A DNA stretch of 15,429 bases from a virus. The notes beneath the pieces were generated by a model, which saw only the letters and a program-made list of their open reading frames with translations, searched no databases and was not told the DNA's origin. The translations under genes were made by a program, and so were the position numbers. Of the stretch, positions 13,268 through 15,429 are shown in pieces (the first letter of the stretch is position 1; each line of letters begins with the position of its first letter). The DNA is taken from positions 1 through 15,429 of IMG/VR virus record IMGVR_UViG_3300001477_000032; one strand, 5' to 3'.

Positions 13268-15429
13268 ATGACATAGAAATTATTTATTTAGAAAGTTAAA
13301 ACTCCATGTATAAACGCAGTAAATATAATTGGCGGTTATTTACCTAGTGTATTAATTGGACAAATGTGTTTATAGACTGGATATGGAGTTGGATATAATT
13401 GTGAAGTATTAATGCAGTGGAATAATTTATTAGGTATGAAAACCTAGTTATTAAATGATACTTGGAAATCAAATTATTGGGATGGTAGATCTGCAACTAA
13501 AAAAACTCCAGAGTATTATGGTTATCATACAACCATTACTGATTCTTTTAGAGTTTATAATAGTATTCAATAGTGCGCTTGTGACTATCTACAGTTTATG
13601 CGTGACGCAAAATATTCTAAAAATGGAAGCTATAAATATAGAGATGTTTTAACAATTAAAGATCCAACAGCTTTAATTACTCAAGTATCTAAACGCGGAT
13701 ATGCAACAGATCCAGCATATATTACTTCTGTAATGAGTATTATAAAAAAACATAATTTAACTCAATATGATAATCAAAAGGAGGTTAATGAGCCAATGAC
13801 ATTAAGATAGGCATTAGCAAAACTCGGCGTTAATTTAATTAATAGAATTAGTTATAATAGAGGACAAGTTCCTGCGCATAATGCAAATACACATCAATAT
13901 TTTGCTATTCATTATCTTGGGGTAAATGGATAGAACCCTGATTTATATGGTGGCGGATATGGTGGTCATTTTTATATAAGCAAAGATGGTAGATGCTATC
14001 AAGCTGCAGAAGTAACGGATAAACTTTGGCATGTAGGAGCTTCTTCAGGATTTTCATATATACATCCATATGCAAGAAATAGTAATACAATAGGAGTCGA
14101 ATGTGGGACATACACCGCTTCTGGAAGAAATAATGATGATGAAACTTGGTATTTTACAGAAACTACTCAAGTAACTGCCGCCAAGCTTGCAGCAGCTGTC
14201 TTAACAGTATATAACATCCCATTAAGTCATTTATTAAGACATGGGGATATTACTACAAAGAATTGTCCTTCTCCGCTAAAGCGTGATCAAGGAAAAGGTA
14301 GTAATTGGACTTGGGATAAATTTAAATCAGAAACAGAAAAATATATAAAACAATTAAAAGGAACATCTACTTTTGTTAAAACTCTTTCTTTAGGCGATAA
14401 TGGACAAGAAGTAAAAACACTACAAGAAAACTTATTATTATTAGGTTTTGTTAACTGTTCTTATTACAGTGGACAAAGAAATTTTGCCGATGGTAGTTTT
14501 GGACAAAACACATTAACTGCTTTAAAACATTTCCAATAGGCTAAAGGACTTTAGGTAGATGGTGTATATGGACCAAATACCGCCGCAGCATTAGATAAAG
14601 AAGTTATAGAAGTTAAAAAATCTAAATTAAATGTTACTCAAAAACAATTTTTAGAAAATGCAAAATTAATTGCACAAGAAAATAAAAAGAATGGTTTTTC
14701 TTATGGCAGCTCTGCATGTCTACCTTCTGTATATTCAAAAGATAAAGTCACTTCATGTGATAGATATGTTAATCAAGTTCTTTATAAATCAGGATTAAAA
14801 AATGTTGGAAATCGTGCTGTTGAATCTTTAAGTTCATATCTTGAAACAACAGTAAAAGCAGTTAGAATTAATGATATAAATCAAATTGCCGCAGGTGATA
14901 TAGTTTTCTTATCTGGCCATGTATTTATTGTTGGAAATAAAAAAGATAATAATAATTATGAAAGATACGATGCTGGTTCTGCAGATCGTATTAAATTACA
15001 AAACCAATATTCTAAATATAATTCTCAACCTTTCATTGAGCCTATTAATGGTTTTAAATATGCTTTAAGATTACCTTTTGTTCAGTAGAGTCCTACAATT
15101 TTAAAACAAGGTGATGAAGGTTCTTTTGTTAAAATACTACAACAAAAACTTATGAAACTTGGTTACTATATTGATCAAGCTGGGGCTGACGGTAAATTTG
15201 GACAAAATACTATGAAAGCTGTAAAACATTTCCAAACTGACCATAATTTATAGGTCGATGGAATCTGTGGACCGCTTACTCAAACAAAACTAAATGCTAT
15301 TTATGAAAAAATAAAATAGTATGATACTCCTTTATCTCACAATGATTTAATAAAATGGAAAACTTGTACTACAACAGATGAACTTAATCTAAGAAATGGT
15401 TCTTCAGTAGCGCATGAAATTATTACAGT
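13268..15429 (+). CDS. endolysin 2 (partial, at least 720 aa): GH73 glucosaminidase, then amidase_2, then PG_binding_1, CHAP-like peptidase, PG_binding_1 and the start of an SH3b-like domain; 12 in-frame TAG sense codons
   Basis: GGAG at 13257..13260, 7-nt spacer, ATG 13268. I translated all 720 codons by hand. There are zero TAA or TGA codons. TAG codons at 13274, 13289, 13373, 13445, 13571, 13808, 13931, 14537, 14552, 15086, 15251 and 15317. The GH73 region VLIGQMCL-x-TGYGVG...NNLLGMK...FRVYNSI...CDYLQFM...GYATDPAYITSV is collinear with FlgJ/AcmA ILAQAALESGWG...NLFGVK...FRVYSSY...SDY..LL...GYATDPHYA. The amidase_2 (PGRP) region is HQYFAIHYLGVNG...GGHFYISKDGRCYQAAEVTDKLWHVGA...NSNTIGVECGTY...LSHLLRHGDITTKNCPSP. 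PG-binding repeats are ALKHFQ-x-AKGL-x-VDGVYGP and AVKHFQTDHNL-x-VDGICGP. The CHAP-like module is SSAC...TSCDRYV...GDIVFLSGHVFIVGN. The C-terminal ELNLRNGSSVAHEII looks like the start of an SH3b domain. Confidence 0.8.

What the first reader, a model, noticed from the sequence alone, without database searches (positions are those of the whole stretch)
13358..13393. A TAG codon sits exactly where GH73 glucosaminidases have their catalytic glutamate, which bears on which amino acid TAG encodes
Seen in sequence: the GH73 block of endolysin 2 reads VLIGQMCL-TAG-TGYGVG (TAG at 13373). It aligns residue for residue with the family's most conserved motif I-L-A-Q-A-A-L-E-S-G-W-G, whose Glu is the general-acid catalytic residue in FlgJ, Auto and AcmA-type enzymes (established knowledge, recalled from memory). 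Two further TAGs also align with Glu. One is YNSIQ-TAG-CACDY versus FlgJ YSSYLEALSDY. The other is DYL-TAG-QIKAQ in lysin 1 versus its paralogous module SYLETTVKAV in lysin 2. Inference: either TAG is decoded as Glu, or as a Glu/Gln mixture, or the glucosaminidase domain is a catalytically dead binding module. The mixture is plausible if the suppressor derives from tRNA-Gln and the host makes Gln-tRNA by the indirect ND-GluRS/GatCAB route, as many Firmicutes do. A mis-acylated Glu-tRNA(CUA) that escapes transamidation would then insert Glu.
Basis: partly seen in the sequence, partly recalled or inferred. Interest (0 to 1): 0.6.

Follow-up and report, generated by a model that had tools for sequence, protein, structure and literature searches.

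The report
Phage reads TAG as glutamate
In this phage the "stop" codon TAG sits at the catalytic glutamate of a cell-wall-cutting enzyme because the phage lineage reads TAG as glutamate, not as the glutamine assumed for all recoded phages so far, so current software mistranslates its late proteins.

Summary
TAG at 13373-13375 is codon 36 of an endolysin (GH73 + Amidase_2 + PG-binding). It aligns with the invariant GH73 general-acid Glu (FlgJ E185/E184), and 119 of 120 homologues have Glu there.

The window is from a large phage, probably from the rumen. TAG is a sense codon in its late genes: 31 in-frame TAGs in the tape-measure protein and two lysins, none in the auxiliary genes.

TAG behaves as a Glu codon:
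- A profile test decodes 42 of 43 sense codons correctly and gives TAG = Glu.
- An orthologous lysin has GAA where the window has TAG at three sites, including the catalytic one. It has TAG at the second catalytic Glu, where the window has GAG.
- Across 57 orthogroups, conserved TAG-bearing columns are Glu 178, Gln 31.
- 21 of those 31 Gln columns come from eight distant relatives that show no Glu columns, so sister lineages appear to use TAG = Gln.

No tRNA(CUA) lies in the window. Relatives carry one in a tRNA array. It resembles the phage tRNA-Gln overall but has C1-G72 and an enlarged D-loop, which should block GatCAB amidation.

I found no report of TAG-to-Glu in phages. Public databases translate these genes with Gln.

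The parts
13373..13375 (+). TAG codon 36 of lysin 2, at the GH73 general-acid glutamate
   Evidence: Ortholog L029 has GAA here.
13511..13513 (+). GAG codon 82 of lysin 2, the second (beta-hairpin) catalytic Glu of GH73; encoded by TAG in ortholog L029
   Evidence: One search aligns it with the first E of SpFlgJ TVEYEN, equivalent to StFlgJ E223. Searches show the L029 TAG.
13268..15429 (+). Endolysin 2, which runs off the window end (757 aa on the near-identical contig): GH73 + Amidase_2 + 2x PG_binding_1 (+ SH3_3). In-frame TAGs at 13274, 13289, 13373, 13445, 13571, 13808, 13931, 14537, 14552, 15086, 15251, 15317
13334..13759 (+). GH73 glucosaminidase domain (residues 23-164)
   Evidence: PF01832, E = 2.8e-19
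13892..14275 (+). Amidase_2 domain (residues 209-336). TAG 13931 lies in a column that is Glu 107 / Asp 13 in homologues
12566..13252 (+). Lysin 1 (228 aa; PG_binding_1 plus a module paralogous to the middle of lysin 2). In-frame TAGs at 12575, 12707, 13013; stop is TGA
12232..12504 (+). Holin (Phage_holin_1), with a TAG at 12481 read through to TAA
1..2722 (-). N-terminal 907 residues of the tape-measure protein (PF10145), with 16 in-frame TAGs. Conserved columns are Glu (TAG 1876 and 1759) or Asp (TAG 1813)
2909..12137 (+). TAG-free auxiliary block, every gene ending in TAA: metallophosphatases, Band_7, RlaP-like nucleotidyltransferase, MVP-shoulder protein, RNA ligase, AAA_33 kinase

Best explanation
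The window comes from a roughly 125 kb tailed phage that uses TAG as a sense codon for glutamate, mainly in late genes (tape measure, holin, both lysins). The sample names suggest a rumen source. In relatives the terminase, tail genes and GIY-YIG endonucleases are recoded as well.

TAG 13373 therefore encodes the general-acid Glu of an intact GH73 glucosaminidase. The enzyme is active only once UAG is decoded, which ties lysis to the late, recoded phase of infection.

Decoding is most likely done by a phage-encoded tRNA(CUA). In relatives this gene sits in an 11-20 gene tRNA array upstream of the baseplate genes. The tRNA looks like a remodelled tRNA-Gln: the first pair is C1-G72 instead of U1-A72 (or A1-U72), position 2-71 is G.U as in the phage tRNA-Glu, and the D-loop is enlarged. 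If a host non-discriminating GluRS charges it with Glu, GatCAB should refuse it, so Glu is delivered to UAG.

Shown: TAG is a sense codon, it behaves as Glu in comparative data, and the tRNA genes exist in relatives.
Inferred: which enzyme charges the tRNA, the escape from GatCAB, and the presence of the tRNA in the window's own genome.
For: Recoding:
- Reading through TAG gives ORFs of 232, 725+ and 909+ codons. The near-identical ENA contig was called the same way.

Amino acid, window versus standard-code homologues:
- TAG columns in lysin 2 are Glu 104/120, Glu 119/120, Glu 108/120 and Glu 107/120.
- TAG columns in the tape-measure protein are Glu 97, Glu 108 and Asp 107.
- Profile log-odds are Glu +21.9, Gln +5.0, Asp -5.9. 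Glu is best in 1,899 of 2,000 bootstraps, and 42 of 43 sense codons decode correctly.

Orthologous lysins:
- L029 has GAA at window TAGs 13274, 13373 and 13445.
- L029 has TAG where the window has GAG 13511.

Across the clade:
- Sites conserved at 80% or more: Glu 128, Lys 11, Gln 7.
- Independent alignment columns: Glu 178, Gln 31, Asp 13, Lys 8. The GAG control gives Glu 468, Gln 14. The CAG control gives Gln 224, Glu 35.
- 21 of the 31 Gln columns belong to eight distant loci with no Glu columns. 100 loci have Glu > Gln, and 65 of them have at least 3 Glu and no Gln columns.
- Database Gln residues at TAG sites are code-15 translations, so Gln counts are inflated.

tRNA:
- tRNA(CUA) genes at L426:4416-4489 (identical in L430) and L428:1808-1883.
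- Both fold as cloverleaves.
- Alignments give C1-G72, G2.U71 and a D-loop of about 11 nt. The phage tRNA-Gln has U1-A72 or A1-U72, G2-C71 and a shorter D-loop.
- Bacterial GatCAB requires U1-A72 and rejects the extra D-loop base of tRNA-Glu (PMC2811023).
Against: - No tRNA(CUA) was found in the window, in the 20 kb around it, or in about 420 loci covering most of the genome map. It appeared only in three relatives reached through a chain of homologues.
- In the L426 lineage, which carries one of the tRNAs, about 15 TAG sites face Gln 5-6, Glu 4, Tyr 3, Ser 1 and Lys 1 in TAG-free orthologs. That lineage may not be purely Glu.
- The window's TAG sites score below typical Glu codons: LL(E)-LL(Q) is 16.9, against 33.4 +/- 6.3 for real Glu codon sets.
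- About 75-80% of TAG columns are variable.
- Over all clade sites the partner profile fits as Glu 0.51, Gln 0.18, Lys 0.10. That fit includes the TAG = Gln lineages and probably some young TAG codons.
- The tRNA is 64% identical to a phage tRNA-Gln and 51% to the phage tRNA-Glu. Its first pair is C-G, not the G-C of tRNA-Glu.
- No proteomic or biochemical data exist.
Confidence: 0.82

Rival explanations
1. Ambiguous decoding: UAG is read as a mixture of Glu and Gln, for example because Glu-tRNA(CUA) is only partly amidated. TAG would then be tolerated at both Glu and Gln sites, and only a fraction of lysin molecules would be active.
For: - After removing the TAG = Gln lineages, Gln-type conserved columns are still about 10 against 178 Glu (5%). 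The GAG control gives 14 against 468 (3%).
- L426-lineage TAG sites face Gln about as often as Glu.
- The tRNA(CUA) is most similar overall to tRNA-Gln.
- The window's TAG likelihood lies between the expectations for pure Glu and pure Gln.
Against: - Strictly conserved TAG columns are overwhelmingly Glu. With at least 95% conservation the counts are Glu 80, Gln 15, and most Gln columns come from the Gln lineages.
- Both catalytic glutamates of GH73 are TAG-encoded in one lineage or another.
- Part of the Gln signal in database columns is a code-15 translation artefact.
- C1-G72 and the enlarged D-loop are both GatCAB anti-determinants.
Confidence: 0.12
2. Standard code 15: TAG = Gln. The GH73 module would be a catalytically dead binding domain with Gln at the acid position, and lysis would be carried out by the Amidase_2 domain and lysin 1.
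For: - Every recoded-phage study I read reports TAG as Gln.
- Public gene calls translate these genes with Gln.
- The protein has a second catalytic domain.
Against: - LL(E)-LL(Q) is +16.9, whereas real Gln codon sets of the same size give -43.5 +/- 7.7.
- Orthologs exchange TAG with GAA/GAG at the catalytic sites, never with CAA/CAG.
- Conserved columns are Glu 178, and only about 10 Gln columns lie outside the Gln lineages.
- The same method does call Gln for eight distant relatives, so it can tell the two apart.
- Other TAGs sit in Glu/Asp columns of the Amidase_2 domain and the tape-measure protein.
Confidence: 0.04
3. The TAGs are true stops: the genes are pseudogenes, the result of assembly error, or low-level readthrough by near-cognate host tRNAs.
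For: No suppressor tRNA is present in the window or its immediate surroundings.
Against: - The same pattern occurs in over 100 independent contigs from many samples, with intact reading frames and conserved domains across up to 39 TAGs per gene.
- TAG is absent from the auxiliary genes and is never used as a terminator in the window.
- Near-cognate readthrough would not give a Glu-specific conservation signal.
Confidence: 0.02

Closest known systems
Code-15 (TAG to Gln) recoded phages: crAss-like, Lak, phAss-1, Jade/Sapphire and others (bioRxiv 10.1101/2021.08.26.457843; PMC9523058; PMC8346664; PMC10607447)
   Same: A low-GC phage genome with in-frame TAG concentrated in structural and lysis genes. 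Early and auxiliary genes are kept in standard code. TAA/TGA are the only terminators. A tRNA(CUA) sits in a phage tRNA array. The logic of delaying late and lysis proteins until the code switch applies equally.
   Different: The inferred amino acid is Glu, not Gln. The tRNA(CUA) lacks the U1-A72 (or A1-U72) pair of tRNA-Gln and, in one version, G73. Predicted suppressor isotypes reported so far are Gln, Trp, Ile and Tyr (PMC10879173), not Glu. Sister lineages of this very group still look like code 15.
NCBI translation table 30 (peritrich ciliate nuclear code; recalled from memory)
   Same: UAG is read as glutamate.
   Different: That code is eukaryotic and nuclear, and it also reassigns UAA. 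Here TAA is the main terminator, and the system is a phage of a bacterium.
Indirect Gln-tRNA pathway (non-discriminating GluRS + GatCAB) and its tRNA discrimination rules (PMC2811023)
   Same: The proposed mechanism uses exactly these rules. GatCAB accepts U1-A72 and a tRNA-Gln-type D-loop, and rejects G1-C72 and the extra D-loop base of tRNA-Glu.
   Different: A natural suppressor that exploits the pathway by escaping amidation has not, to my knowledge, been described. The host and its aminoacylation pathway are unknown here.
GH73 N-acetylglucosaminidases (FlgJ, Auto, LytB, AtlA) and GH73 + Amidase_2 phage endolysins
   Same: Same fold family by HMM. Same LE(T/S)G(W/Y)G general-acid motif and the same Glu on the beta-hairpin. 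Many standard-code homologues of 52-66% identity have the same GH73 + Amidase_2 architecture.
   Different: The general-acid Glu is written with a reassigned stop codon.

Membership tests
GH73 glucosaminidase (PF01832) | Profile match above the curated threshold | tested here: met
   70.4 bits against a cut-off of 30.2, residues 23-164. PDB hits to FlgJ, a peptidoglycan hydrolase (7qfu) and Auto.
GH73 glucosaminidase (PF01832) | Invariant general-acid Glu in the central helix (E184/E185/E122) | tested here: met
   The aligned codon is TAG 13373. It is met only under TAG = Glu, which searches support. Ortholog L029 has GAA here.
GH73 glucosaminidase (PF01832) | Second carboxylate on the beta-hairpin (E223/E224) | tested here: met
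   GAG 13511-13513 aligns with the first E of SpFlgJ TVEYEN.
GH73 glucosaminidase (PF01832) | Glucosaminidase activity on peptidoglycan | not testable with these tools
   Needs an enzyme assay with Glu versus Gln at residue 36.
Stop-codon-recoded phages, genetic code 15 | In-frame TAG in full-length, conserved late genes, with TAG not used as a terminator | tested here: met
   31 in-frame TAGs in the tape-measure protein and the two lysins. All window genes stop at TAA or TGA.
Stop-codon-recoded phages, genetic code 15 | TAG decoded as glutamine | tested here: not met
   Glu is favoured over Gln by 16.9 nats. Conserved columns are Glu 178, and only about 10 Gln columns lie outside the Gln lineages. 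TAG exchanges with GAA at the catalytic sites.
Stop-codon-recoded phages, genetic code 15 | Phage-encoded suppressor tRNA with anticodon CUA | tested here: inconclusive
   None in the window, in L001 or in about 420 related loci. Present in the tRNA arrays of three relatives, L426, L430 and L428. The array region of the window's own genome could not be reached.
tRNA-Gln identity of the suppressor | Weak first pair U1-A72, G73 discriminator and a short D-loop (GlnRS and GatCAB determinants) | tested here: not met
   Both suppressor types have C1-G72 and a D-loop of about 11 nt. The discriminator is A73 in L426 and G73 in L428.
tRNA-Glu identity of the suppressor | Acceptor and D-arm features of tRNA-Glu, with a UUC-type anticodon | tested here: inconclusive
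   G2.U71, C3-G70, C4-G69 and C5-G68, a 3-bp D-stem (GAC/GUC in the L428 version, as in the phage tRNA-Glu; GUC/GAC in L426) and a large D-loop are shared with the phage tRNA-Glu; A73 is shared only by the L426 version. But the first pair is C-G rather than G-C, the anticodon is CUA, and overall identity is higher to tRNA-Gln: 64% against 51%.
NCBI table 30 (peritrich code) | Both UAA and UAG read as Glu | tested here: not met
   TAA terminates 10 of the 11 window genes.

The most novel reading that the evidence does not exclude
A lineage of 120-140 kb phages, apparently from the rumen, has reassigned UAG to glutamate. This codon meaning is not reported for any phage or bacterium. Related lineages with homologous structural genes keep UAG = glutamine. 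The switch would have been made by remodelling a tRNA-Gln-like amber suppressor (U1-A72 to C1-G72, enlarged D-loop), so that Glu loaded by a non-discriminating GluRS is no longer amidated by GatCAB. If so, the group is a natural Gln-to-Glu transition within one phage group. It would also mean that public code-15 translations of these phages carry Gln at every such Glu, including catalytic residues.
Probability: 0.6. Interest if true: 0.88.

Novelty: new variant of a known kind. Interest (0 to 1): 0.8.

Why it matters
- **Genetic code.** It adds a new meaning (Glu) to the short list of stop-codon reassignments in phages. That contradicts the working assumption that phage TAG recoding means Gln. 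Borges et al. state that only TAG-to-Gln and TGA-to-Trp were seen in phages whose code differs from the host's.
- **Annotation.** Gene callers and databases translate these genomes with code 15. I confirmed Gln at every TAG in database proteins. Catalytic and structural glutamates are therefore mis-written. An endolysin synthesised from such a translation would carry an E-to-Q change at its general acid.
- **Evolution of the code.** Closely related Glu-reading and Gln-reading lineages, together with tRNA(CUA) genes that differ at known GatCAB determinants, make a long-standing question directly testable. The question is how a codon changes meaning, and whether the indirect aminoacylation pathway eases that change.

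Tried and rejected
- **Finding the source contig by exact DNA match.** Nothing in IMG/VR or JGI metagenomes. Found instead through an exact protein look-up.
- **GenBank phages.** No DNA relatives. Only distant protein hits for the lysin, gyrase and MVP-like protein.
- **Walking the genome for a suppressor tRNA.** I used all 8 viral scans, 2 metagenome scans, 2 genome scans and 12 contig look-ups.
  - ARAGORN found no tRNA(CUA) in loci L001-L421. Positive controls worked.
  - My own search for a CUA stem-loop followed by a T-arm found none.
  - Rfam at gathering thresholds found nothing in 143 kb of the window plus its closest large relative.
  - ARAGORN in relaxed intron mode gave only noise.
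  - The tRNA array was reached only through baseplate homologues. The last two look-ups hit contig ends.
  - The suppressor sequence is absent from GTDB genomes.
- **Phage-encoded aaRS or release factor.** None in a Pfam scan of 10 unannotated ORFs.
- **Odd tRNA-like genes** with 3-, 8- or 9-nt anticodon loops in relatives. I considered them as UAG decoders and rejected them because none contains CUA.
- **PDB alignment of the Amidase_2 region.** Too weak to assign a role to TAG 13931.
- **phAss-1-type phages.** Considered as the family and rejected: they are TAG = Gln with a Gln-type suppressor.
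Full report
**What is in the window.** The window is 31% G+C. Under the standard code its two ends are broken into short ORFs. 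If only TAA and TGA are stops, three long ORFs appear:
- a tape-measure protein on the minus strand (1-2722, 16 in-frame TAGs);
- lysin 1 (12566-13252, 3 TAGs);
- lysin 2 (13268 to the window end, 12 TAGs).

The central block (2909-12137) has no in-frame TAG, and every gene in it ends in TAA. It encodes metallophosphatases, a Band_7 protein, a nucleotidyltransferase, an MVP-shoulder protein, an RNA ligase and a kinase. A near-identical ENA contig has 2 mismatches over 13.8 kb. It is 124.6 kb long, and its sample name suggests a sheep rumen. Its gene calls read through TAG: tape measure 3,028 aa with an intein, lysin 2 757 aa.

**The observation.** TAG 13373-13375 is codon 36 of lysin 2. Pfam places GH73 at residues 23-164, followed by Amidase_2 and two PG_binding_1 domains. 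phmmer against PDB aligns ...QMCLxTGYG with FlgJ ...AALETGWG. Entry 3k3t carries Ala at that position. The literature calls this the invariant GH73 general acid: E184, E185 and E122. In 120 homologues of 52-66% identity the column is Glu in 119. The closest homologue writes it GAG, in a standard-code gene next to an integrase. The second catalytic Glu, on the beta-hairpin, is GAG 13511-13513 in the window.

**Which amino acid: the window's own sites.** I built query-anchored, weighted profiles from 240 database homologues of lysin 2 and the tape-measure protein, and scored every codon.
- The method decodes 42 of 43 sense codons correctly.
- The 23 TAG sites give log-odds of Glu +21.9, Gln +5.0, Asp -5.9.
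- Glu is best in 1,899 of 2,000 site bootstraps.
- LL(E)-LL(Q) is 16.9. Random sets of real Gln codons give -43.5 +/- 7.7, and real Glu codons give 33.4 +/- 6.3.

TAG is therefore far from Gln and somewhat below a typical Glu codon. Part of that shortfall is an artefact. Database proteins from recoded relatives are code-15 translations: P0274 has Gln at each TAG of its gene. This plants false Gln residues in the columns.

**Which amino acid: orthologs.** IMG/VR holds many relatives, with gyrase A 58-97% identical on contigs up to 142 kb. Two carry orthologous lysins. A codon alignment shows:
- L029 has GAA at window TAGs 13274, 13373 (the catalytic site) and 13445.
- L029 has TAG at the second catalytic Glu, where the window has GAG and L007 has GAA.

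Exchange of TAG with GAA or GAG at two invariant glutamates is hard to explain unless TAG means Glu. The same exchange is visible by eye in the terminase, a head-tail protein and a GIY-YIG endonuclease that carries up to 21 TAGs.

**Which amino acid: the whole group.** Using site-wise partners across 74 loci, TAG sites whose partners are at least 80% conserved are Glu 128, Lys 11, Gln 7. Every locus individually favours Glu. The main partner codon is GAA.

I then aligned 57 orthogroups (3,756 ORFs from about 420 loci) and counted independent columns.

| Codon | Conserved-column counts |
|---|---|
| TAG | Glu 178, Gln 31, Asp 13, Lys 8 |
| GAG (control) | Glu 468, Gln 14 |
| CAG (control) | Gln 224, Glu 35 |

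Of the 31 Gln columns, 21 come from eight loci that have no Glu columns at all: L260, L261, L305, L306, L311, L312, L313 and L187. These are distant relatives, with sheath protein about 51-64% identical. In contrast, 100 loci have Glu > Gln, and 65 of them have at least 3 Glu columns and no Gln column. So the method can call Gln. It does so for sister lineages, and it calls Glu for the window's lineage. The residual Gln rate there is about 5% of Glu + Gln, close to the GAG control at about 3%.

**The decoder.** There is no tRNA in the window, in the 20 kb contig segment around it, or in most of the genome map of relatives. This held through many scans with working controls.

A tRNA array lies upstream of the baseplate genes. 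Three relatives carry a tRNA with anticodon CUA in it: L426, the identical copy in L430, and a divergent version in L428. Both versions fold as cloverleaves. Both have these features:
- C1-G72, G2.U71 and C3-G70;
- the anticodon loop CUCUAAA;
- a 3-bp D-stem with a D-loop of about 11 nt.

The phage tRNA-Gln(UUG) genes have U1-A72 or A1-U72, G2-C71, G73 and a shorter D-loop. The phage tRNA-Glu(UUC) has G1-C72, G2.U71 and A73. By my count on the alignment, the L426 suppressor is 64% identical to a phage tRNA-Gln. Its acceptor and T arms are nearly the same as that tRNA-Gln's except at positions 1-72, 71 and 73. It is 51% identical to the phage tRNA-Glu.

Bacterial GatCAB needs U1-A72 and rejects the extra D-loop base of tRNA-Glu (PMC2811023). 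The simplest reading is therefore a tRNA-Gln-derived amber suppressor that can still be glutamylated but can no longer be amidated. This is inference. The host, its GluRS and GlnRS status, and EF-Tu acceptance are all unknown.

**Caveats.**
- The tRNA(CUA) was not seen in the window's own genome. The link runs through a homologue chain: the L387 contig shares a 97%-identical gyrase A with the window's relative; then an 89-aa tail protein at 87%; then a baseplate protein at 92% (L428) or 77% (L426).
- L428 is only lightly recoded.
- L426's TAG sites face Gln 5-6, Glu 4 and Tyr 3 in TAG-free orthologs. That lineage may be mixed, or it may read Gln.
- Most TAG columns are variable. Over all sites the partner profile fits as Glu 0.51, Gln 0.18, Lys 0.10. 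I attribute this to the Gln lineages plus young TAG codons that arose from one-step neighbours, but a minor Gln fraction cannot be excluded.
- The five C-terminal TAG columns of lysin 2 and the three TAG columns of lysin 1 were not profiled.

**Comparison with what is known.**
- Borges et al. report only TAG-to-Gln and TGA-to-Trp in phages whose code differs from the host's.
- Lak phages align TAG with Gln in 75-85% of cases.
- phAss-1 has a Gln-type suppressor.
- Predicted suppressor isotypes are Gln, Trp, Ile and Tyr.
- A 2026 jumbo-phage survey uses code 15 as Gln.

I found no report of TAG-to-Glu in a phage or bacterium in six full-text searches. Subscription-only literature is not covered. 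UAG = Glu is known to me only from the peritrich nuclear code, which is recalled from memory.

**Verdict.** The finding is real. A plausible tRNA mechanism is partly documented.

Noticed in passing
Loci L260, L261, L305, L306, L311, L312, L313, L187 (IMG/VR relatives): Distant relatives with homologous head and tail genes show only Gln-type conserved TAG columns (8, 4, 4, 4, 7, 3, 1 and 1; none Glu). The group seems to contain both TAG = Gln and TAG = Glu lineages.
   Followed up: partly
Database proteins, e.g. P0274 versus L426:10001-12835: The protein database translates recoded phage genes with code 15: Gln stands at every TAG. This inflates Gln in homologue columns and would put Gln at catalytic glutamates.
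   Followed up: yes
L348 c4052-4149; L368 c4535-4630 and c4118-4185; L374 7694-7767: tRNA-like genes with abnormal anticodon arms: 8-nt loops UUGAAGGU and UUAAAGGU, a 9-nt loop UUGAAAAGA, and a 3-nt loop. They lie next to a normal tRNA-Leu(CAA) in the early-gene region upstream of the terminase operon. Function unknown; none contains CUA.
   Followed up: partly
L369 15150-15262: A roughly 113-nt tmRNA-like, tRNA-like element with a G3.U70 acceptor pair and a GGUUCGAUUCC T-arm. It is a weak Rfam tmRNA hit, below the gathering score, in the small-gene region of a relative.
   Followed up: no
L012 14929-15873, L062 15146-16129 and orthologs, just after the DNA ligase gene: A membrane-anchored coiled-coil GIY-YIG protein is the most heavily recoded gene seen (7-21 TAGs in about 320 codons). 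It sits inside the otherwise nearly TAG-free replication block.
   Followed up: partly
window 2909-12137 and L073: The TAG-free block next to the lysis genes looks like an RNA or tRNA repair kit: RNA ligase, an AAA_33 kinase, several metallophosphatases and an RlaP-like nucleotidyltransferase. A relative adds a Thg1-like enzyme.
   Followed up: no
window 6415-8916: An 833-aa protein with a major-vault-protein shoulder domain. In GenBank phages it matches only 460-735 kb huge phages, at about 38-41% identity.
   Followed up: no
L001 1-1107 and upstream (window 1-2722 continues it): The tape-measure protein of the near-identical contig is 3,028 aa and carries Hint/intein domains. Relatives have 2,572-2,918-aa versions with up to 39 TAGs.
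   Followed up: no
L394 about 6194; L426 near 14770; L428 near 15095 (baseplate-module gene of 644/678 aa): One TAG (motif RDN*SG or RDP*SG) is conserved even in lightly recoded relatives. It precedes a conserved tail of about 34 residues, so the gene has a short or a long form depending on UAG decoding.
   Followed up: no
L422 5499-5605: A Y-RNA-like (YrlA) hit below the gathering score, directly abutting an 80-nt tRNA-Gln(UUG) in the phage tRNA array.
   Followed up: no
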